Sequence record: OQ031073
DNA: 39,356 nucleotides
Origin: Shigella phage SFP21B
Reading direction: 5' to 3' (one strand)
Both the position numbers and the translations under genes were made by a program. Below are positions 5,448-26,158 of the stretch, piece by piece. How positions within the stretch are numbered: the first letter of the stretch is position 1; the number at the start of each line of letters is the position of its first letter. Below the pieces are notes generated by a model. The model was not told the DNA's origin, made no database searches, and saw only the letters and a list, made by a program, of their open reading frames with translations.

Positions 5448-7730
5448 ATGGCTAGTAATATCGAATCAGCTTTAGCTAACCGGACTATGGGCCGTGGTCG
5501 CGCTCCGGGCAAAGCTATCAGTGTAGACTATCAAGCGGCTAACGTTCAGGGGCAGACTGGGGACTCCGGTCTTGCCCGTGCGTTCACCAACTTCGTGGAG
5601 TCCGGCACTGGCCTGTACAAGCAGTTTCAAGAGAAGGCCAAGAACCTTGGGGATGAGCGGTCTAACGAGATTATCCGTAAGCTGACTCCCCAGCAACGGC
5701 GTGAGGCCATCCAGAATGGGACCCTTCTGTATCAGGACGACCCGTATGCGATGGAGGCACTGAAAGTCAAGACTGGTCGCAACGCTGCCTATGCGGTGGA
5801 CGATGAGATTAACGTCAAGATTCAGAACGGTGAGTTCCGCACCCGTCAGGACATGGAGGAGTACCGACACCAGCGACTTCAGGATGCCGCTAAGTCCTAT
5901 GCTGATGAGGCTGGGATTAACCCGAACGATGAGCATTTCCAGCGTGGCTTTAACGCAGACATCACGGACCGCAACGTAGCCATCTATGGGTCGTTCAATA
6001 AGTATTTCTCTAAGCAGTCCGAGAATACCGCTATGCTGAACACCCGTGTCGAGCTGAACTCGTTCCTGAACGATGGGGACCTGATGCGTTCACCTGAGGC
6101 TGGCAAGTCGTTCATGGCCTACCTACGTGATGGACTTACCACTGCCGCCATTCCGTCTGACCAAAGGGCTACCGAAGTCATCTCTCAGACGGTGCGTGAT
6201 GCAATCCAGAAGTCCGGTGGCGCTAACTTCCTCCAGCAGATTCGACAGGAACGCATCACCCTTAACGGGGTGGACGCCACGGTCGAGGAGATTGTGGGAC
6301 CTGAGGTCTTCAATGCTGCCGTGGTTGAGGCTCAAGGCACCGAGTACAAGCTGGTAGCTAAGTATCAGGAAGACTTGTCGCTGGGCGTTCAGTCTGCCCT
6401 GCTTCAGGACGACCCGACCATTGGTCTGGCCCAAATCCAGAAACTCAAGGCTCAAAACAACCAGCTCCAGCCGGGTGAGGAAATGACACCACAGCGTCAG
6501 ATGCTCATTAATGCCGAAGCCAGCCTCTTAGAGTCCGTGAAGCGCAAGTCCGCTGAGCAGGCTAAGGAGAACACTAAGCTCATCCAGACGCAGAACAAGC
6601 AACTGGTCATAGACCAAGTGTATCAGCGACGACTGGCTGGTGACAACGTGTCCACCAACTATGAGGACCTCCCGGTATCCGAGGCCACTGGCGAGTTCAA
6701 GCGTTCGGACATGAACAACTACGCTATGGGTAAACTACAGCAGATTGACCAGATGGACATCCCGCAAGCTGCGAAGGATGCTCAGAAGGTGGCACTGCTG
6801 CGGGCTGACACCAACAATGGACCGTTCCGTAATGCCTTCCAGACGCTGACTCAGGATGCTGCTGGTGAGTGGCAGGCTGCGGTAATCCGTGGTCAATACG
6901 ACCCGGACAAGATGCAGCGCTTCGAGGCTCTGCGTAAGGTCTACACTCAGGACCCTTCCAGCTTCGCGGCTCTATACCCTGACCAAGCCCAATTGTTCAC
7001 GACTTTCGAGCAGATGGACAAGATGGGTCTGGACCCTCAGACTATGATTGACGCTGACAAACAGGCTGCAAGTCAGTCCCGTGAGATGCGCATTGAGTCT
7101 GACAAAGCGTGGCAGGAGCTTAAGAACGACTCGAAGAACAAGGACCTCTCGCGGCTACCGACGAGTCTGGACGCAAGTGCTCGTAAGGTCTGGGACTCAT
7201 GGTACTACCGCACAGGTAACGCCGATGCAGCTACCCAGAACACTCAGAAGTGGCTGAACGAGAACACCGTGACTTTCAGTGATGATGGTCAGGACGGTAA
7301 GTCCATCGGCATGGTGTCCAAGCACCAGCTTATGGTAGGGGATAACCCTGAGTCTTGGCAGGTTGGTCGAGACATTATCGACACAGCCCGCAAGCAGCTC
7401 ATCAAGACTAACCCTTGGGTCGTGAACTCTCAGCTCTCTGTAGTTGAGCAGAACGGCTCGGTCTTCCTGCAAGACGCCACTGGGACCATTCGTATTCGCT
7501 ACGATAAGGAACTGGTTGGTAAACTGTACCGTGAACAGCAGAAACAAGCCGAGGATAAAGCCTACGCTGAAGCTGAACGTAAAGCCAACACCCGCGCTCG
7601 CATTGTCGAGACTAAAGCGGCTGGTGATAAACGTCGAGCGGAGCGTGAAGGTAACATCCAGAAACGCGGCGGTATGTACAGTGATGTCTCGCTGGAGGGT
7701 ATCGCAAACACCTTAATCGGTAAGGAGTAA
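5448..7730 (+). CDS. 15: internal virion protein C (gp15)
   Basis: 760 aa, size and position of T7 gp15; SD AGGAGGA. Confidence 0.88.
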   Translation: MASNIESALANRTMGRGRAPGKAISVDYQAANVQGQTGDSGLARAFTNFVESGTGLYKQFQEKAKNLGDERSNEIIRKLTPQQRREAIQNGTLLYQDDPYAMEALKVKTGRNAAYAVDDEINVKIQNGEFRTRQDMEEYRHQRLQDAAKSYADEAGINPNDEHFQRGFNADITDRNVAIYGSFNKYFSKQSENTAMLNTRVELNSFLNDGDLMRSPEAGKSFMAYLRDGLTTAAIPSDQRATEVISQTVRDAIQKSGGANFLQQIRQERITLNGVDATVEEIVGPEVFNAAVVEAQGTEYKLVAKYQEDLSLGVQSALLQDDPTIGLAQIQKLKAQNNQLQPGEEMTPQRQMLINAEASLLESVKRKSAEQAKENTKLIQTQNKQLVIDQVYQRRLAGDNVSTNYEDLPVSEATGEFKRSDMNNYAMGKLQQIDQMDIPQAAKDAQKVALLRADTNNGPFRNAFQTLTQDAAGEWQAAVIRGQYDPDKMQRFEALRKVYTQDPSSFAALYPDQAQLFTTFEQMDKMGLDPQTMIDADKQAASQSREMRIESDKAWQELKNDSKNKDLSRLPTSLDASARKVWDSWYYRTGNADAATQNTQKWLNENTVTFSDDGQDGKSIGMVSKHQLMVGDNPESWQVGRDIIDTARKQLIKTNPWVVNSQLSVVEQNGSVFLQDATGTIRIRYDKELVGKLYREQQKQAEDKAYAEAERKANTRARIVETKAAGDKRRAEREGNIQKRGGMYSDVSLEGIANTLIGKE

Positions 7731-18010: not shown

Positions 18011-18217
18011 GAGTCCTAAGGTCTAGACTCACAGGTTATCACATCCGGTCTCTTTAGCAGTCAGTGACCATTGCTGACTAGGGTTATTGTTGTTGGTGTC
18101 TGCCAACTGGACTCTTATTATCAATAGTCCAGACCTAAAGTCAATCATCTGTAGTCGATAATGGTCTTCCTTATATAGTCATTGGACTACTGTATAAATT
18201 AACATGATAAATAGTTG

Positions 18218-18246
18218 TTGACAGTAGGTCTAACTTTTGGTTTAAT
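18218..18246 (+). promoter_or_regulatory. host sigma70-type early promoter (A1-like)
   Basis: TTGACA -35, 17-nt spacer containing GTCTAAC as in T7 A1, -10 TTTAAT. Confidence 0.5.
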
Positions 18247-18373
18247 AGCTTCCGTCAACACGACACGGCAACAACCGGATAGTGAAGACGCCGGGTCGGT
18301 CCGGTTAAGTAGTCAGCCTGTAAGACATACGAAAAACAGGCAACCGACAGCTAGGCGACTAGCGACAAAGTAG

Positions 18374-18403
18374 TTGACAAGCAGTAACGACTTAAAGTAG
18401 TAT
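18374..18403 (+). promoter_or_regulatory. host sigma70-type early promoter (A3-like)
   Basis: TTGACA -35, 18-nt spacer, -10 TAGTAT, followed by GTACCACAT as in T7 A3. Confidence 0.5.
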
Positions 18404-20815: not shown

Positions 20816-20838
20816 ATTAAACCCTCACTATAGGACTC
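20816..20838 (+). promoter_or_regulatory. phage RNAP promoter located upstream of the RNAP gene, GATTAAACCCTCACTATAGGACT
   Basis: full consensus match 70 nt upstream of gene 1 ATG, followed by stem-loop GGTCT...AGACC. Confidence 0.75.
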
Positions 20839-20908: not shown

Positions 20909-23575
20909 ATGAGCGTCATTCAGCTTGAGAAGCACGACTTCTCGGACATCTCCAACGCAATCGAGCCATTCAACATTCTGGCTGACCACTACGGTCAGGA
21001 CCTCGCAGTAAAACAGCTTCAGCTAGAGCATGAGGCATACACTGAAGGCGAGCGTCGTTTCATTAAGAACCTTGAGCGTCAGGCTGAGCGCGGGGAGCTG
21101 GCTGATAATCAGGTCGCAAGACCATTGATGCAAACTCTGGTCCCAAAGCTGGCGCAAGCCGTCAAGGAATGGCATGAGACCCAAGGGTCAACCCGTGGGA
21201 AACCTCAGGTCGCCTTCCTGAAGCTGAGCACTGAGAACAAGCCTCGTGAGCTTCTGGTCAAGCCTGAGTCGGTGGCAGTCATCGTCCTGAAGATTGCACT
21301 TAGCAAGCTGGTCAAGCCTGAAGGCGTACCGATTACGCCGATGGCCTCCGCTATAGGCCGCACACTGGAAGATGAAATCCGCTTCGGTCGCATCCGTGAC
21401 CAAGAGCAGGAGCACTTCAAGAAGACCATAGCTGAGAACCTGAAGAAACGCGCTGGCGTGGCCTACAAGAAAGCCTACATGCAAGCGGTCGAGGCCTCCA
21501 TGCTGGACCAGAAGCAACTGGCTGATGCGTGGGGGACTTGGAGTCCTGACGAGGCAGTACACGTAGGCATCAAGATGCTTGAGCTGCTGATTCAGTCCAC
21601 ACAACTGGTTGAGCTGAAGCGTCACAACGCCGGGAACGTAGCGTCAGACGTAGAAATGGTCCACCTGTCAGACTTCTGGGCCAAGAAGATGGCTCAGCGT
21701 GGTTACAGCCTTGCGGGTATCGCTCCGGTCTACCAACCTTGTGTCGTGCCTCCACGTCCTTGGAACTCGGTGGTCGGTGGCGGGTACTGGGCTAAAGGTC
21801 GCAGACCTCTCCCGCTGATGCGCTTAGGGTCGAAGGCCGCTATCGCTCGCTACGAGGAAGTTTACATGCCTGAAGTCTACGAGGCAGTGAACATCATTCA
21901 GCAGACTCCTTGGAAGGTGAACAAGAAGGTGCTGGACGTGGTTAACATGGTCGAGAAGCTGAACAATACTCCTATCGCAGACATCCCTCAGATGGACCCG
22001 ATGAAGCCTGAAGACTACAACGGGGAGACTGAAGAGGAGCTGAAGGCGTGGAAGAAAGCTGCTGCTGGCATCTACCGCCGCGAGAAGGCCCGACAGTCCC
22101 GCCGTTTGTCTCTGAGCTTCATCGTAGGACAGGCGAACAAGTTCTCTCAGTTCAAGGCCATTTGGTTCCCGTACAACATGGACTGGCGCGGTCGCGTCTA
22201 CGCTGTCCCGATGTTCAACCCACAAGGCAACGATATGCAGAAGGGTCTGCTGACTCTGGCAGTCGGTAAGCCAATTGGTGCGGACGGCTTCAAGTGGCTG
22301 AAGGTCCACGGTGCAAACTGTGCGGGTGTCGATAAAGTCACCTTCGAGGAGCGCATCAAGTGGGTAGAAGACAACCACGACAACATCCTCGCGGCTGCTA
22401 AGAGTCCGATGGATAGTATCGACTGGTGGGGCAAGCTGGACTCTCCGTTCTGCTTCCTCGCGTTCTGCTTCGAGTATGCTGGGGTCATGCACCACGGGCT
22501 GAGCTACTCCTGCTCTCTACCTATCGCGTTCGATGGGTCCTGCTCCGGGATTCAGCACTTCAGCGCGATGCTTCGTGACCACGTTGGTGGACATGCGGTT
22601 AACCTGACGCCAAGCGGGAAGGTTCAAGACATCTACCGCATTGTGTCCGACCGTGTGGAAGAACAGCTTAAGGAACTGCTGGTCAACGGTAGCGACAACG
22701 AGGTGAAGACTTTCGAGGACAAGAAGACAGGCGAGATTACTGAACGTATGGTCCTTGGAACTCGTGAGCTGGCCCGTCAGTGGTTGACCTACGGTATGTC
22801 ACGCTCGGTCACTAAACGCTCGGTAATGACTCTGGCATACGGGTCGAAAGAGTACGGGTTCGCGGACCAAGTGTTTGAGGACACCGTGATGCCAGCGATT
22901 GACAATGGCAAGGGTGCGATGTTCACAGACCCAAGCCAAGCGTCCCGCTTCATGGCTAAGATGATTTGGGATGCAGTAAGCGTGACCGTGGTTGCTGCGG
23001 TAGACGCGATGAAGTGGCTGCAAGGTGCGGCTAAACTGCTGGCTTCTGAGGTCAAGGACAAGAAGACCAAAGAGGTCCTGAAGCCTTGCCTCCCGGTACA
23101 CTGGGTCACGCCTGATGGGTTCCCGGTCTGGCAGGAGTACCGCAAGAAGGACACCACACGTCTGGACCTGATGTTCCTCGGTACTTTCCGTCTGCAACCT
23201 ACCGTCAACAAAAGCGGGAGCAAGGAGCTGGACAAACACAAGCAGGAGTCAGGCATTAGCCCGAACTTTGTACACTCACAAGACGGCAGTCACCTGAGGA
23301 AGACTGTGGTCCACACTCACCGCAAGTATGGCGTGATGTCCTTCGCAGTGATTCACGATAGCTTCGGGACCATCCCGGCTGACGCTGAGTTCCTGTTCAA
23401 AGGTGTCCGTGAGACGATGGTCGAGACCTACCGCGACAACGATGTGCTGCAAGACTTCTACGAGCAGTTCGCGGACCAGCTTCATGAGAGTCAGCGCGAC
23501 AAGTTGCCTGAGCTTCCGAAGCGCGGTAAACTGAACATCGAAGACATTCTGTTATCTGACTTTGCATTCGCCTAA
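20909..23575 (+). CDS. 1: single-subunit DNA-directed RNA polymerase (gp1)
   Basis: 888 aa; collinear with T7 RNAP (FSDI, PFNILADHYG, PCVVPPRPW, AIWFPYNMDWRGRVYAV, DGSCSGIQHFSAMLRD, RSVTKRSVMTLAYGS, HDSFGT, SDFAFA C-terminus). Confidence 0.98.
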   Translation: MSVIQLEKHDFSDISNAIEPFNILADHYGQDLAVKQLQLEHEAYTEGERRFIKNLERQAERGELADNQVARPLMQTLVPKLAQAVKEWHETQGSTRGKPQVAFLKLSTENKPRELLVKPESVAVIVLKIALSKLVKPEGVPITPMASAIGRTLEDEIRFGRIRDQEQEHFKKTIAENLKKRAGVAYKKAYMQAVEASMLDQKQLADAWGTWSPDEAVHVGIKMLELLIQSTQLVELKRHNAGNVASDVEMVHLSDFWAKKMAQRGYSLAGIAPVYQPCVVPPRPWNSVVGGGYWAKGRRPLPLMRLGSKAAIARYEEVYMPEVYEAVNIIQQTPWKVNKKVLDVVNMVEKLNNTPIADIPQMDPMKPEDYNGETEEELKAWKKAAAGIYRREKARQSRRLSLSFIVGQANKFSQFKAIWFPYNMDWRGRVYAVPMFNPQGNDMQKGLLTLAVGKPIGADGFKWLKVHGANCAGVDKVTFEERIKWVEDNHDNILAAAKSPMDSIDWWGKLDSPFCFLAFCFEYAGVMHHGLSYSCSLPIAFDGSCSGIQHFSAMLRDHVGGHAVNLTPSGKVQDIYRIVSDRVEEQLKELLVNGSDNEVKTFEDKKTGEITERMVLGTRELARQWLTYGMSRSVTKRSVMTLAYGSKEYGFADQVFEDTVMPAIDNGKGAMFTDPSQASRFMAKMIWDAVSVTVVAAVDAMKWLQGAAKLLASEVKDKKTKEVLKPCLPVHWVTPDGFPVWQEYRKKDTTRLDLMFLGTFRLQPTVNKSGSKELDKHKQESGISPNFVHSQDGSHLRKTVVHTHRKYGVMSFAVIHDSFGTIPADAEFLFKGVRETMVETYRDNDVLQDFYEQFADQLHESQRDKLPELPKRGKLNIEDILLSDFAFA

Positions 23576-23588
23576 GGAGGCACCTAGT

Positions 23589-23789
23589 ATGAAATTCGCA
23601 CACAAGCAAACTGGCGTTAAGGGTGGCACTCAAATCGTGACCGTTACCGAACACAATGGCAAGGGTCTTGTGAAGACCACGGTCATCCCAACCGAGATGT
23701 CAAAACAGCTTAATGTCCCATTCAAATGGCTGGTGAAGCAGGTTGAGAAGTCACACGAACAGGCCCTGACTAAGGCAGCAGCGAAATGA
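23589..23789 (+). CDS. hypothetical protein
   Basis: 66 aa from ATG with SD AAGGAGG; track start 23562 overlaps RNAP. Confidence 0.5.
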   Translation: MKFAHKQTGVKGGTQIVTVTEHNGKGLVKTTVIPTEMSKQLNVPFKWLVKQVEKSHEQALTKAAAK

Positions 23790-23867
23790 CAGACTTACAG
23801 TGGCTGGGAGTGTGGCTCCTAGCTTTAGCAGTTTACACTTTAATCCAACGCAGAAGAGGTTAACCAT

Positions 23868-24332
23868 ATGTTCGGTAAGTCAAAACTTAAAGCACAAATC
23901 AAAGAGTTGAGCGTGAAGGCAGCATACTTGGAGCGAGCCGTAGCGGTCCGGGACAAGGACAACGAGCGGCTGAAGGATAAACTTGCTGAATCCGAGCGCA
24001 GACGCTTAACGCCGCCAGAGCCTGTGACTGTGAAGCGTATGGTTGGCCTGAAGTTCCGAGCGCTGTTCAATGGTCTCTACCAGCCGACTGAGTTCAAGAC
24101 CGGGCCGGGGACATGTGGCAAGACAGTGACACACTTCACCACGAGTCGGACCGAGCGCGAGCTGACCATCCACCAGCACCATACGGATGGCTCTCAGAAG
24201 GACTTCGAGTATCGACTGAGCGACATCGACGGTCGCATCCAGTACGACTACGAGCAAGTTAAGGTCTACGGCGAAGAGGCAGAACGCGAGCGAGCGCTGA
24301 GGCAGTTCGTAGTTCGACCGCGCTATGCTTAA
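23868..24332 (+). CDS. hypothetical protein with N-terminal coiled-coil-like segment
   Basis: 154 aa, clean ORF with ATG and upstream GAAGAGG; no recognised homolog. Confidence 0.55.
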   Translation: MFGKSKLKAQIKELSVKAAYLERAVAVRDKDNERLKDKLAESERRRLTPPEPVTVKRMVGLKFRALFNGLYQPTEFKTGPGTCGKTVTHFTTSRTERELTIHQHHTDGSQKDFEYRLSDIDGRIQYDYEQVKVYGEEAERERALRQFVVRPRYA

Positions 24333-24350
24333 ACCCTCACTATAGGATTA
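24328..24350 (+). promoter_or_regulatory. phage RNAP promoter (phi1.1-like), GCTTAAACCCTCACTATAGGATT
   Basis: consensus match. Confidence 0.85.
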
Positions 24351-24394
24351 GACTCAAGGTCATGACTCAAAGTCGTGGCCTTCATGATTAACCC
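24351..24394 (+). other. RNase III-type processing stem-loop (R1.1-like), copy 2
   Basis: GACTCAAGGTCATGACTCAAAGTCGTGGCCTTCATGATTAACCC. Confidence 0.45.
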
Positions 24395-24420
24395 TAACTC
24401 AAACTACTGGAGATTTAACC

Positions 24421-24600
24421 ATGTATCAGAACACCGTCAACTTCGAGCGCATCCGTGAACGTCAGCAGACTGAAGGCTACATGCCTAAAGGCCGCAAGCT
24501 GAACAAGCCTAAACGTGGTGGTGGCGTGAAGGGTGCTTTCCGTAACGCTGAGGGTAAAGACTCTCTGGTCAACCAAGAGAAGTATTTCTTAGGAGCATAA
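24421..24600 (+). CDS. 1.1: gp1.1-like small basic protein
   Basis: 59 aa, not in track; KGRKLNKPKR resembles T7 gp1.1. Confidence 0.6.
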   Translation: MYQNTVNFERIRERQQTEGYMPKGRKLNKPKRGGGVKGAFRNAEGKDSLVNQEKYFLGA

Positions 24601-24604
24601 CCAA

Positions 24605-24868
24605 ATGGGCCGACTTTATAGTGGCAACCTCAACGCTTTCAGAGCAGCGTGTAACAGACTTTATCAGTTAGACTTCTGCGTGATACAGCAGGACTGGTAC
24701 GAGGCGCATCTTCGGAAAGAGTGCATGAGACTTCAAGTCGAGGACCGAGCCGGTAACATCTTCGCGCTTGAGACCTTCGCACACTACGACGAAGACGTAC
24801 TGTATAATACTGCAACCACATTCCTTAACGGTCTCGCTGACCAACTCGACACATGGAGAAAAATATAA
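24605..24868 (+). CDS. 1.2: gp1.2-like protein (host dGTPase inhibitor family)
   Basis: 87 aa; MGRLYSGNL..., YDEDVL resemble T7 gp1.2. Confidence 0.85.
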   Translation: MGRLYSGNLNAFRAACNRLYQLDFCVIQQDWYEAHLRKECMRLQVEDRAGNIFALETFAHYDEDVLYNTATTFLNGLADQLDTWRKI

Positions 24869-25944
24869 TGACAACTATCAAAACCAATCCACATCGCGCT
24901 GTAGATTACTCTGAGTCCGGCGTTAAGAAAGCACTGGACGCAGCCGGGTCGCTGGAAGCTGAAGTGAAGTACGACGGTGTGCGTCTCAACATCCCGGTCC
25001 TTCGTGAAGGTGAGACCTACTGGCTGAGCCGTGAGTCGAAACCTCTGCCAGCCTTGGAGTGGATGAACTCTGAGTTAGGAAATGCTTGGACCCAAGCTGA
25101 CTGGCGTTGGTTCCTGCGTCAAGCTGGCTACGAAGGTGTGGGCCTGATGATTGACGGCGAGGTCATGGTCAAAGGCGTGGACTTCAACACCTCCTCAGGT
25201 CTCATCCGAACGAAGTGGCTGAAGCCTAACAACGAGGCGTTCGCTGAATGCTATCCGGGCCGTGGCAAGAAGGTCCCGTTCTGGGTCGCCCGGTCCCGAC
25301 TTCAGGTTGTGGTCTACGGTGTCGTCGACATGACGACCATAGCCGACCCGAAAGCCGAAGGTCCTATCCATAGCGTCACCCGCCTGAAAGCCGAAGCTAT
25401 CGTCCCTCTCCTCCAGAAATACTTCCCTGAAATCGACTGGGTTCTGTCTGAGTCACACACGGTCTTTGACCTTGAGTCGCTCAACTCCCTCTACGAAGAG
25501 AAGCGTCTGGAAGGACACGAGGGTCTGGTAGTCAAGGACCCACTGGGCAAATACAAGCGTGGAAAGAAGTCAGGCATGTGGAAGATGAAGCCTGAAGACA
25601 CCATCGACGGGACCGTATGTGGCCTCGTGTGGGGAACTCCGGGAAAGGCCAACGAAGGCAAGGTCATCGGCTTTGAGGTACTCTTGGAGGATGGCATGGT
25701 GGTCAACGCCTGCGGTCTGACTGAAGAACAGAAGGGCGAGTTCACAGCTAAAGTCGCTGAATCTAGCGGTTATACCTTGTCTGGCGGCCCTGTGGTTATT
25801 CAGGATGGGACCGAGAAGACCAACCCCTACCACGGCTGGCAGTGTGAAGTCCTCTTCATGGAGCGGTTCCCTGACGGCTCCCTTCGTCATCCTAGCTTCA
25901 AGTGCTGGCGTGGAACCGAAGACAACCCAACGGTGAAGTCATGA
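24868..25944 (+). CDS. 1.3: ATP-dependent DNA ligase (gp1.3)
   Basis: T7 ligase-like (IKTNP, adenylation motif EVKYDGVR, YWLSR, MIDGEVMVKGVDFNTSSGLIRTKW, EGHEGLVVKDP, YKRGKKSGMWKMKPE, DGSLRHPSF); start at ATG 24868 (TAATG overlap), in-frame alternative 24853. Confidence 0.95.
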   Translation: MTTIKTNPHRAVDYSESGVKKALDAAGSLEAEVKYDGVRLNIPVLREGETYWLSRESKPLPALEWMNSELGNAWTQADWRWFLRQAGYEGVGLMIDGEVMVKGVDFNTSSGLIRTKWLKPNNEAFAECYPGRGKKVPFWVARSRLQVVVYGVVDMTTIADPKAEGPIHSVTRLKAEAIVPLLQKYFPEIDWVLSESHTVFDLESLNSLYEEKRLEGHEGLVVKDPLGKYKRGKKSGMWKMKPEDTIDGTVCGLVWGTPGKANEGKVIGFEVLLEDGMVVNACGLTEEQKGEFTAKVAESSGYTLSGGPVVIQDGTEKTNPYHGWQCEVLFMERFPDGSLRHPSFKCWRGTEDNPTVKS

Positions 25945-26120
25945 GTACGCAACTTTATATCAACACAGCAAGTGGTCAACTCTACGCTGTGGTAAATGGT
26001 GAGCTGTGGTATCGTAAACTCAAGAAGTGGGCCAAGTCCTACTACGATGAAGAGACAATATCAACCATGAGTCATCGCTACCGTAAGGCTGCGAAGGTGA
26101 ACAACTTTAAGATGCGTTAA
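25941..26120 (+). CDS. hypothetical small protein
   Basis: 59 aa from ATG overlapping ligase stop (ATGA). Confidence 0.45.
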   Translation: MSTQLYINTASGQLYAVVNGELWYRKLKKWAKSYYDEETISTMSHRYRKAAKVNNFKMR

Positions 26121-26123
26121 CGT

Positions 26124-26158
26124 CAACCCAGTGGTCTTCTGACTGCTGGGTTTCTTTG
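26124..26158 (+). terminator. rho-independent terminator (early terminator TE-like)
   Basis: stem ACCCAGTGG/CTGCTGGGT followed by TTCTTTG; located after the ligase region where T7 has TE. Confidence 0.6.

What the first reader, a model, noticed from the sequence alone, without database searches (positions are those of the whole stretch)
23576..24420. Coding ORFs occupy the gene 1 to gene 1.1 interval
In T7 this interval is the AT-rich primary origin with paired promoters and, as I recall, no genes. Here it holds a 66-aa ORF (23589..23789), a 25-aa hydrophobic mini-ORF (23786..23863, MTDLQWLGVWLLALAVYTLIQRRRG) and a 154-aa ORF with a coiled-coil-like N-terminus (23868..24332), and only one promoter (24328). 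Either the origin is organised differently or accessory genes were inserted.
Basis: partly seen in the sequence, partly recalled or inferred. Interest (0 to 1): 0.45.

Follow-up and report, generated by a model that had tools for sequence, protein, structure and literature searches.

The report
Ordinary early accessory genes after RNAP
The stretch between the RNA polymerase gene and gene 1.1 of this K1F-like (T7-family) phage holds three real but ordinary accessory genes shared with more than 100 related phages; one is a relative of phage T3 gene 1.05, and the only new item is a conserved 25-residue membrane peptide gene that no one annotates.

Summary
All three ORFs and a single phage promoter are at the stated coordinates.

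The premise fails for T3. T3 has gene 1.05 in this interval, and only T7 has no gene there.

**Identity.** The window is the whole genome of Shigella phage SFP21B, a Kayfunavirus. Its record already annotates the 66-aa and 154-aa ORFs as hypothetical proteins SFP21B_022 and SFP21B_023.
- The 66-aa protein (phrog_8082) occurs in 219 phage records.
- The 154-aa protein is a Pfam PF25755 (T3 gene 1.05) member with an added N-terminal helix. It occurs in 116 records and is a present/absent cassette, missing in K1F.
- The 25-aa hydrophobic mini-ORF is intact and the same length in all 21 Kayfunavirus genomes examined. Its pN/pS is 0.33, against about 1.0 in the other frames. It is translationally coupled and annotated nowhere.

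**Downstream elements.** The promoter and hairpin before gene 1.1 are homologous to T3 phi1.1 and its R1.1 RNase III site.

**Origin.** The AT-rich element of the T7 and T3 origins (GC about 0.22) is absent; the minimum here is 0.37. Origin placement in this genus therefore remains open.

**Function.** None could be assigned by family, structure or literature searches. Interest is low.

The parts
20909..23575 (+). Gene 1, phage single-subunit RNA polymerase (888 aa). It is the upstream border of the interval.
   Evidence: ORF. Relatives annotate it as RNA polymerase.
23589..23789 (+). 66-aa early accessory protein (SFP21B_022, phrog_8082). The predicted fold is three beta-strands followed by two helices. 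Function unknown.
   Evidence: - PHROG match at 1.8e-40.
- Found in 219 phage records by tblastn.
- Identical to WBF69717.1.
- AlphaFold2 mean pLDDT 89.8.
- pN/pS 0.28.
- Shine-Dalgarno AAGGAGG at 23574-23580.
23786..23863 (+). Unannotated 25-aa mini-gene: a single hydrophobic helix followed by QRRRG. Its ATG overlaps the stop of the 66-aa gene (ATGA), which suggests translational coupling.
   Evidence: - Intact and exactly 25 codons in all 21 Kayfunavirus genomes examined, including three that lack gene 1.05.
- pN/pS 0.27-0.33 in frame against 1.03 and 1.09 in the other frames.
- At least 103 records by tblastn.
- Not annotated in the two records checked for it, nor in the source record.
- Nine variants are absent from the 15-billion-protein collection.
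23868..24332 (+). 154-aa gp1.05-family protein (SFP21B_023). It has an N-terminal long helix (residues 2-47), a six-stranded beta domain (53-133, the T3 gene 1.05 domain) and a C-terminal helix (135-148).
   Evidence: - Pfam PF25755 at 2e-25, 89 bits against a cut-off of 27.
- 35% identity to T3 gp1.05, E 2e-11.
- 116 phage records.
- AlphaFold2 mean pLDDT 87.5.
- pN/pS 0.25 for the domain and 0.48 for the helix.
- GAGG at 23856-23859 lies 8 nt before the ATG.
24328..24350 (+). Phage RNA polymerase promoter (-17 to +6, +1 at 24345), the positional homologue of T3 phi1.1. It overlaps the stop codon of the 154-aa gene.
   Evidence: - Exact match to the genome's own promoter consensus, 36 bits.
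- Same position and same initially transcribed sequence GGATTAGAC in every relative.
- T3 phi1.1 overlaps the end of gene 1.05 in the same way.
24356..24382 (+). 12-bp hairpin in the leader of gene 1.1, homologous to the annotated RNase III site R1.1 of T3.
   Evidence: - Fold energy -16.1 kcal/mol, z = -4.4.
- Aligns with T3 R1.1: AAGGTCA...TGGCCTT..TGATTAAC.
- Two relatives have different upper-stem sequences that still pair.
24421..24600 (+). Gene 1.1 (59 aa), the downstream border of the interval.
   Evidence: Pfam PF08200 Phage_1_1 at 5e-10. GGAG at 24409-24412.
24605..24868 (+). Gene 1.2, dGTPase inhibitor (context).
   Evidence: Pfam PF10922 at 2e-34 and phrog_2949.
26125..26152 (+). 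TE-like intrinsic terminator after the ligase region (context). It places the interval ORFs inside the early transcription unit.
   Evidence: 12-bp stem followed by a T-run. EcoDS1 annotates terminator TE at the equivalent place.
20820..20835 (+). Phage promoter core about 75 nt upstream of gene 1 (context). It is the nearest phage promoter upstream of the three ORFs.
   Evidence: Exact consensus match. K1F has one at the same place.

Best explanation
The gene 1 to gene 1.1 interval of this Kayfunavirus (Shigella phage SFP21B) carries a compact block of three co-transcribed, translationally coupled early accessory genes.

- **Gene order.** A 66-aa soluble protein comes first. A 25-aa single-helix membrane peptide follows, with its start overlapping the preceding stop. 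A 154-aa protein starts 4 nt later; it is the T3 gene 1.05 domain with an N-terminal long helix in front and a short C-terminal helix behind.
- **Transcription (inferred).** There is no promoter between gene 1 and the end of the block. The three genes would therefore be transcribed as a 3' extension of the gene 1 message. The sources would be host RNA polymerase from the early promoters, up to the terminator at 26125-26152, and phage polymerase from the promoter at 20820.
- **End of the block.** It ends at a promoter and hairpin homologous to T3 phi1.1 and its R1.1 RNase III site. These drive and process the gene 1.1-1.2-1.3 message.
- **Core and cassette.** The 66-aa gene and the mini-gene were found together in every Kayfunavirus genome examined. 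The gene 1.05 homologue is a cassette that is present or cleanly absent.

Shown: the genes are real, conserved, under purifying selection and homologous to known families, and the promoter and hairpin are homologous to those of T3. Inferred: early expression, translational coupling and membrane insertion of the peptide.

The most likely role is host take-over or counter-defence early in infection, as for other non-essential class I/II genes of T7-like phages. No biochemical activity could be assigned.

The promoter at 24328-24350 may still serve as a replication origin, since every T7 origin needs a phage promoter. It lacks the AT-rich element of the T7 and T3 primary origins.
For: **Coordinates and signals.**
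- ORFs, Shine-Dalgarno sites and the ATGA overlap are read directly from the sequence.

**Identity of the genome and its annotation.**
- The closest DNA match is a Kayfunavirus, Escherichia phage Pisces, at 91.6% over 1.25 kb; 219 records match.
- The two larger products are identical to SFP21B_022 and SFP21B_023 on a 39,356-bp contig.

**Family membership.**
- phrog_8082 at 1.8e-40 and phrog_8103 at 4e-58.
- Pfam PF25755 at 2e-25, PF08200 and PF10922.
- Pairwise match to T3 gp1.05 at E 2e-11.

**Distribution.**
- The 66-aa protein occurs in 219 records.
- The gp1.05 homologue occurs in 116 records.
- The mini-ORF occurs in at least 103 records.
- The same gene order is annotated in 15 relatives.

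**Selection.**
- pN/pS is 0.28, 0.33 and 0.36 for the three ORFs, against 0.09 for gene 1.1.
- The off-frame controls for the mini-ORF give about 1.0.

**Cassette behaviour.**
- K1F, LM33_P1 and vB_EcoP_F lack gene 1.05; in K1F the mini-ORF stop abuts the promoter, and the other two have no 1.05 ORF between the mini-ORF and gene 1.1.

**Promoter and hairpin.**
- The promoter and leader are conserved across relatives.
- The leader is homologous to the T3 phi1.1/R1.1 annotation.
- The hairpin is kept with different stem sequences in two relatives.

**Early unit and origin.**
- A terminator downstream places the block in the early unit.
- The origin elements of T7 and T3 have GC 0.22 and 0.23. 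The lowest 60-nt GC after this promoter is 0.37.
- Every T7 origin needs a T7 promoter, and secondary origins exist (PMC8373140).
Against: - There is no expression, proteomic or ribosome-profiling evidence for any of the three products.
- No function was obtained from any search:
  - PADLOC and NCBIfam gave nothing.
  - PDB sequence searches gave nothing.
- The 3' third of the mini-ORF is almost invariant at the nucleotide level. Part of its conservation could therefore reflect an overlapping nucleic-acid signal, such as the Shine-Dalgarno site of the next gene.
- Early timing is inferred from anatomy only.
Confidence: 0.85

Rival explanations
1. Split membrane anchor. The mini-ORF and the 154-aa gene would together be a two-cistron version of the single-chain proteins found in other Autographiviridae, which carry a transmembrane helix, a coiled coil and the 1.05 domain. 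The 25-aa peptide would tether or partner gp1.05 at the inner membrane.
For: - Among 83 family representatives at 50% identity, about 25-30 carry an N-terminal transmembrane helix before the coiled coil and domain.
- Erwinia phage pEp_SNUABM_11 has such a 193-aa protein at the same locus, directly after gene 1. It aligns with the window protein over the helix, the domain and the tail at 35% identity, E 2e-15.
- In the window the membrane peptide gene ends 4 nt before the anchor-less gene.
- Citrobacter phage Citrof5 shows a broken version: a 36-aa membrane piece and a separate 84-aa domain ORF.
Against: - K1F, LM33_P1 and vB_EcoP_F have lost gene 1.05 but keep the mini-ORF intact.
- The mini-ORF is coupled by an ATGA overlap to the 66-aa gene, and it co-occurs with that gene rather than with 1.05.
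- Erwinia phage L1 has an anchor-less coiled-coil form with no membrane mini-ORF upstream.
- The helix is too short for its homology to the fused forms to be tested.
Confidence: 0.1
2. The 25-codon frame is not a gene. The 78-nt spacer would be conserved as an RNA or DNA signal, for example a ribosome-binding region for gene 1.05 or a processing or regulatory site. The open frame would then be incidental.
For: - The last 27 nt are nearly invariant and contain the GAGG used by the next gene.
- No gene caller or annotator has called it.
- No family matches it.
Against: - The frame is open and exactly 25 codons in 19 distinct sequences from 21 genomes, including one at 56% identity.
- Substitutions are biased to synonymous sites only in this frame: 0.27-0.33 against 1.03 and 1.09.
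- In the 15 distinct sequences compared, which exclude the divergent Kosakonia phage, all changes in the conserved 3' part are synonymous.
- Amino-acid changes keep the hydrophobic helix and the QRRRG tail.
- The region is retained where gene 1.05 is absent.
- Rfam found no RNA family, and the repeat search found only short two-copy matches.
Confidence: 0.1
3. The interval is a rearranged primary replication origin. Replication would still start here, at the single promoter and its downstream hairpin region, and the ORFs would simply share the space.
For: - A phage promoter is the one element essential to every T7 origin (PMC8373140).
- The promoter is the positional homologue of T7 phi1.1B and T3 phi1.1.
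- The promoter and its 50-nt leader are more conserved than the flanking coding sequence.
Against: - The AT-rich segment that accompanies the promoter in the T7 and T3 origins has GC 0.22-0.23. Here the minimum is 0.37, no lower than after several other promoters in the genome.
- There are no paired promoters.
- The repeat search found only short two-copy matches, nothing resembling origin repeats.
- Leader conservation is already explained by the RNase III-type hairpin and the gene 1.1 translation signals.
Confidence: 0.3

Closest known systems
Bacteriophage T3 gene 1.05 region (NC_003298: phi1.05, primary origin, gene 1.05, phi1.1, R1.1, gene 1.1)
   Same: - A gene 1.05 homologue lies between gene 1 and gene 1.1.
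- A promoter overlaps its stop codon.
- That promoter is followed by a homologous hairpin, which T3 annotates as RNase III site R1.1, and then by genes 1.1, 1.2 and 1.3.
   Different: - T3 has a promoter (phi1.05) and an AT-rich origin (GC 0.23) directly after gene 1. The window has neither.
- T3 gp1.05 is 90 aa and consists of the domain only. The window protein has an added 50-residue N-terminal helix and a C-terminal helix.
- T3 has no counterpart of the 66-aa gene or the mini-ORF.
Bacteriophage T7 gene 1 to gene 1.1 interval (phi1.1A, phi1.1B, primary origin)
   Same: It has the same flanking genes, and a phage promoter followed by a leader before gene 1.1.
   Different: - T7 has no gene here, two promoters, and an AT-rich block with GC 0.22.
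- The window has 744 nt of coding sequence at GC 0.53, and one promoter.
Kayfunavirus relatives (K1F, EcoDS1, Pisces, SFPH2, ST31 and others)
   Same: - They share the gene order gene 1, 66/71-aa gene, mini-ORF, (gene 1.05), promoter, hairpin, gene 1.1.
- The two larger ORFs are annotated as hypothetical proteins, or as gp1.05 in EcoDS1.
   Different: - K1F, LM33_P1 and vB_EcoP_F lack gene 1.05.
- EcoDS1 and LM33_P1 have an extra 76-aa gene after gene 1.
- Most relatives use the promoter core CTATCACTATAGG, whereas the window uses CCCTCACTATAGG.
Small hydrophobic ORFs of T7 and T3 (T7 genes 1.4 and 1.5, T3 gene 1.5)
   Same: They are very short (25-51 aa), single-hydrophobic-helix products in the early/middle region of the same phage subfamily. 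T3 gp1.5 is also 25 aa.
   Different: - No sequence similarity was detected.
- Those peptides have acidic C-termini and lie after the early terminator.
- The mini-ORF has a basic QRRRG tail and lies before it. Its function is likewise unknown.

Membership tests
Pfam PF25755 Phage_T3_1_05 (T3 gene 1.05 protein family) | Profile match above the curated gathering score | tested here: met
   89 bits against a cut-off of 27, E 2e-25. Residues 58-128 match profile positions 2-73 of 73.
Pfam PF25755 Phage_T3_1_05 (T3 gene 1.05 protein family) | Direct similarity to T3 gp1.05 itself, including the conserved G-x-G-x-C-G-K hairpin motif | tested here: met
   BLASTP gives 35% identity over 77 residues, E 2e-11. 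Invariant columns G79, G81, C83, G84 and K85 are shared with the T3-type sequence P0121.
Pfam PF25755 Phage_T3_1_05 (T3 gene 1.05 protein family) | Genomic position between gene 1 and the phi1.1 promoter / gene 1.1 | tested here: met
   Window order, T3 order. The same position holds in Erwinia phages L1 and pEp_SNUABM_11.
Pfam PF25755 Phage_T3_1_05 (T3 gene 1.05 protein family) | A known biochemical function | not testable with these tools
   None is described. The literature searches found only genome-annotation tables.
T7/T3-type primary origin of replication | A phage RNA polymerase promoter in the gene 1 to gene 1.1 interval | tested here: met
   One promoter at 24328-24350.
T7/T3-type primary origin of replication | An AT-rich segment of about 60-80 nt directly downstream of the promoter | tested here: not met
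   GC is 0.22 in T7 and 0.23 in T3. In the window the lowest 60-nt GC within 160 nt downstream of the promoter is 0.37.
T7/T3-type primary origin of replication | Two tandem promoters (T7 phi1.1A/B) or a promoter directly after gene 1 (T3 phi1.05) | tested here: not met
   No site scores above -1.6 bits in 23500-24320, whereas real promoters score 31 or more.
T7/T3-type primary origin of replication | Initiation of DNA synthesis at the site | not testable with these tools
   This needs marker-frequency sequencing or mapping of replication intermediates.
RNase III processing site R1.1 of T3/T7 | A hairpin immediately downstream of the phi1.1 promoter, homologous in sequence to the annotated T3 site | tested here: met
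   Alignment with T3 L004:3004-3054. The fold has z = -4.4.
RNase III processing site R1.1 of T3/T7 | Structure maintained through sequence change | tested here: met
   Phages vB_CtuP_B1 and Ro103C3lw have different upper-stem sequences and still fold into 10-bp hairpins. This rests on only two independent variants.
RNase III processing site R1.1 of T3/T7 | Cleavage by host RNase III | not testable with these tools
   This needs in vitro cleavage or 5'-end mapping in rnc+ and rnc- hosts. Rfam holds no model that matched.
Pfam PF08200 Phage_1_1 (gene 1.1 protein), as EcoDS1 and Dev2 label the 66/71-aa homologue | Profile or pairwise similarity of the 66-aa protein to gene 1.1 proteins | tested here: not met
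   The 66-aa protein has no Pfam hit. Only the 59-aa product at 24421-24600 matches PF08200. BLASTP of the two gives E = 18. The 'gp1.1' label in those records is therefore a misnomer.

The most novel reading that the evidence does not exclude
The unannotated 25-aa peptide would be a genuine, genus-wide membrane micro-protein that works with its neighbours. In one version it is the detached membrane anchor of the gp1.05-family protein, whose relatives in other Autographiviridae carry the anchor in the same chain. In the other it is the membrane partner of the 66-aa protein, to which it is translationally coupled. Either way it would form an early, inner-membrane-associated host take-over or exclusion module. 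Its presence would also have displaced the T7/T3-type origin from this interval.
Probability: 0.15. Interest if true: 0.4.

Novelty: new member of a known kind. Interest (0 to 1): 0.2.

Why it matters
The practical value is small.
- T7 is a poor template for reading this interval in other Studiervirinae. T3 and the K1F group both carry genes here.
- The 'gp1.1' label on the 66/71-aa gene in some records is wrong.
- A conserved 25-codon gene is systematically missed by annotation pipelines in the Kayfunavirus genomes checked; tblastn finds the peptide in at least 103 phage records. Several of these phages are being developed for therapy, for example against K1-capsule E. coli, Shigella and Salmonella Typhi.

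If the peptide and the gp1.05 family act at the membrane early in infection, they would be candidates for host take-over or anti-defence functions. That remains untested.

The absence of the T7/T3 AT-rich origin element means that origin usage in this genus is an open, easily testable question.

Tried and rejected
**Family searches with no result.**
- PADLOC gave no hit for any product.
- NCBIfam gave only sub-threshold noise.

**Structure searches with no usable result.**
- PDB sequence searches with profiles of both larger proteins gave only chance-level hits or none.
- Foldseek against the PDB gave nothing at E <= 0.001.

**Nucleic-acid searches.**
- Rfam found nothing on 23400-24700.
- The repeat search found only short two-copy matches.

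**Ideas considered and dropped.**
- G-P-G-T-C-G-K-T at residues 79-86 fits the Walker A pattern. It was rejected because the K-T is not conserved in the family. The motif also sits in a beta-hairpin of an all-beta domain.
- A read-through or frameshift fusion of the mini-ORF with either neighbour was rejected. The frames differ, the frame shared by the 66-aa and 154-aa genes contains a stop in the spacer, and the upstream extension of the mini-ORF frame is not conserved.

**Searches that returned too little.**
- A protein search with T3 gp1.05 returned only one cluster.
- tblastn with the K1F-type peptide returned nothing, probably because of the low-complexity filter. The count of 103 records is therefore a lower bound.

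**Literature.** Searches for gene 1.05 / gp1.05, K1F origin, accessory-gene screens and SFP21 found no functional data.
Full report
**What is there**

Gene 1, the 888-aa phage RNA polymerase, ends at 23575.
- A 66-aa ORF runs from ATG 23589 to 23789. It is preceded by AAGGAGG at 23574-23580.
- A 25-aa hydrophobic ORF occupies 23786-23863. Its ATG overlaps the previous stop codon as ATGA.
- A 154-aa ORF occupies 23868-24332. GAGG lies 8 nt upstream of its ATG.

Gene 1.1 follows at 24421-24600 and matches Pfam PF08200. Gene 1.2 (PF10922) and the ligase gene come next.

A weight matrix built from the 12 phage promoters of the window separates them cleanly from everything else. All 12 score 31 bits or more, and the next best site scores 0.7. 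The matrix finds exactly one promoter in the interval, at 24326-24353, with +1 at 24345.

**What genome this is**

The region is 82-92% identical to many Kayfunavirus genomes (K1F-like Studiervirinae); 219 records match. The 66-aa and 154-aa products are identical to 'hypothetical protein SFP21B_022' (WBF69717.1) and 'SFP21B_023' (WBF69718.1). Both belong to Shigella phage SFP21B, on a contig of 39,356 bp, which is the length of the window. The window is therefore a permuted copy of that genome. Its record already annotates two of the three ORFs, with consecutive locus tags, so the mini-ORF is not annotated there.

**Are the ORFs ordinary?**

Yes. The 66-aa protein is phrog_8082 at 1.8e-40 and is found by tblastn in 219 phage records.

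The 154-aa protein is phrog_8103. Residues 58-128 match Pfam PF25755, 'Enterobacteria phage T3 gene 1.05 protein', at 89 bits against a cut-off of 27. It is 35% identical to T3 gp1.05 itself, E 2e-11, and occurs in 116 phage records. EcoDS1 annotates its homologue as gp1.05.

Fifteen relatives that I opened show the same order and annotate both larger ORFs.

T7 indeed has only phi1.1A and phi1.1B in this interval. T3 does not. Its record annotates phi1.05, the primary origin, gene 1.05, phi1.1 and the RNase III site R1.1 there. Its annotation half is met; no expression data exist.

**The mini-ORF**

This is the one item that is not already on record. Every Kayfunavirus genome I examined has it, 21 in all with 19 distinct nucleotide sequences. 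In each it is intact and exactly 25 codons long, with a hydrophobic core and an invariant QRRRG end.
- Kosakonia phage Kc166A has it at only 56% identity.
- K1F, LM33_P1 and vB_EcoP_F have it although they lack gene 1.05.

Pooled pairwise pN/pS is 0.27-0.33 in this frame, and 1.03 and 1.09 in the two other frames. The few changes in its highly conserved 3' third are all synonymous in the 15 sequences, which exclude the divergent Kosakonia phage.

tblastn finds the peptide at full length in at least 103 records. This is a lower bound, because the commoner variant is masked by the low-complexity filter.

It is not annotated in the two records opened to check this, the SFPH2 RefSeq record and vB_EholP_HHH, nor in any other relative opened. 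Nine variants are absent from a collection of 15 billion predicted proteins. The likely reason is that the ORF is shorter than the minimum length of gene callers.

I regard it as a real, translationally coupled gene for a single-pass membrane peptide, with the basic end on the cytoplasmic side. The rival reading, a non-coding spacer, gets about 0.1.

**The gp1.05-family protein**

AlphaFold2 with a 36-sequence alignment gives a confident model, mean pLDDT 87.5. It has one long helix (2-47), a six-stranded beta domain (53-133) and a C-terminal helix (135-148).

The domain is more constrained (pN/pS 0.25) than the helix (0.48). The helix also occurs in several very different sequence versions among close relatives.

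No solved structure resembles the domain.

An exhaustive search with the domain found 83 clusters at 50% identity. They fall into three architectures.
- Domain only, 75-105 aa, as in T3.
- Coiled coil plus domain, as in the window.
- Transmembrane helix plus coiled coil plus domain, in about 25-30 clusters.

Erwinia phage pEp_SNUABM_11 has the third form at the same locus, directly after gene 1. It aligns with the window protein over the helix, the domain and the tail.

This raised the idea that the mini-ORF is the detached anchor of gp1.05. Three findings weaken that idea.
- Phages lacking gene 1.05 keep the mini-ORF.
- The mini-ORF is coupled to the 66-aa gene rather than to gene 1.05.
- Erwinia phage L1 has the anchor-less form with no mini-ORF upstream.

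I give the idea about 0.1-0.15.

**The 66-aa protein**

EcoDS1 and Dev2 label the homologue 'gp1.1'. It has no similarity to gene 1.1 proteins.

**Promoter, hairpin and transcription**

The promoter overlaps the stop codon of the 154-aa gene, exactly as T3 phi1.1 overlaps the end of gene 1.05.

The transcript begins GGATTAGAC in every relative. It forms a 12-bp hairpin at 24356-24382, with z = -4.4. This leader aligns with the annotated T3 R1.1 RNase III site. Two relatives with different upper-stem sequences still form the hairpin.

No promoter lies between gene 1 and 24326. A TE-like terminator lies at 26125-26152. I therefore infer that the three genes are read as the tail of the gene 1 message. 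Host polymerase would transcribe them early, and phage polymerase would transcribe them from the promoter at 20820.

That inference, their non-universal distribution and their moderate constraint fit non-essential early accessory genes. I did not search the literature for host take-over or anti-defence roles of such genes, so that role rests on general knowledge. No activity could be assigned.

**The origin question**

The AT-rich element of the T7 and T3 origins has GC 0.22 and 0.23. Nothing comparable follows the promoter here. The minimum 60-nt GC is 0.37, no lower than after several other promoters in this genome. The interval as a whole has GC 0.53.

There are no paired promoters. The repeat search found only short two-copy matches.

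A phage promoter is the one element every T7 origin needs, and T7 can use secondary origins (PMC8373140). The promoter at 24328-24350 could therefore still serve as an origin. Sequence cannot decide this. I give a retained origin here about 0.3.

It is a property of the whole genus, not of this genome.

**Verdict**

This is an ordinary, genus-typical block of early accessory genes. Two are already annotated, and one belongs to a named Pfam family. The block has a T3-like promoter and RNase III hairpin at its end.

The modest novelty is a conserved, never-annotated 25-codon membrane-peptide gene, plus the finding that many gp1.05-family proteins are membrane-anchored. Interest is 0.2.

Noticed in passing
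window 20820-20835 (gene 1 starts at 20909); K1F locus L003:185: A consensus phage RNA polymerase promoter sits about 75 nt upstream of the phage RNA polymerase gene itself. K1F has one at the same place. The T7 record annotates only an E. coli promoter (C) there. This implies positive autoregulation of gene 1 and phage-polymerase transcription of the three interval ORFs. The downstream leader shows no significant structure (z = -0.2).
   Followed up: partly
window promoters compared with loci L001-L019: The window, vB_CtuP_B1 and Ro103C3lw use the promoter core CCCTCACTATAGG, which is T3-like at positions -11 to -8. They have an 888-aa polymerase. K1F, EcoDS1, Pisces, SFPH2 and most other Kayfunaviruses use CTATCACTATAGG and have an 893-aa polymerase. 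There therefore appear to be two promoter-specificity lineages within one genus.
   Followed up: no
window 24384-24400 (CATGATTAACCCTAACT), conserved in all relatives: Just after the hairpin there is an invariant ATTAACCCTAA. It resembles the upstream half of a T3-type promoter (ATTAACCCTCACTAAAGGGAGA) but lacks the -5 to +1 part. It is conserved even in phages whose own promoters read CTAT at those positions. It could be a relic of a second promoter or part of the processing site.
   Followed up: no
K1F locus L003:3349-3402 (DQ111067 about 5648-5701): In the K1F record the gene 1.1 reading frame stops after 17 codons (…ERQQT*). All relatives continue for 59 codons, and K1F leaves genes 1.1 and 1.2 unannotated. 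This is probably a sequencing error or frameshift in the 2005 record.
   Followed up: no
EcoDS1 L001:1690-1920 and LM33_P1 L024:448-678: An extra 76-aa ORF (MSMKLVAHN…) is inserted between gene 1 and the 71-aa gene in these two phages only. This is further evidence that the site directly after gene 1 is a hot spot for accessory-gene gain and loss.
   Followed up: no
Citrobacter phage Citrof5, L022:508-618 and 773-1027: The membrane-anchored gp1.05-type gene appears broken into a 36-aa membrane-helix ORF and a separate 84-aa domain ORF, with about 150 nt between them. The intact form is represented by P0294 (172 aa). This is either a pseudogene, a sequencing error or a fission in progress.
   Followed up: partly
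window 25942-26120: A 59-codon ORF (MSTQLYINTASGQLYAVVNGELWYRKLKKW…) lies between the ligase gene and the TE-like terminator, overlapping the ligase stop. It was not examined further.
   Followed up: no
window 18131-18250: This is the lowest-GC stretch of the whole genome (GC 0.275 over 80 nt). It lies in the presumed early-promoter region near the left end, next to sigma-70-like promoter matches at 18117-18144 and 18374-18403. It has not been linked to any function.
   Followed up: no
relatives' annotation of the 154-aa homologue: Hafnia phage yong1 and Escherichia phage TM1 annotate the gp1.05 homologue as 'microtubule-binding protein'. No family or structure search here gave any support for that name. 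I suspect it was carried over from a coiled-coil match, but did not check this.
   Followed up: partly
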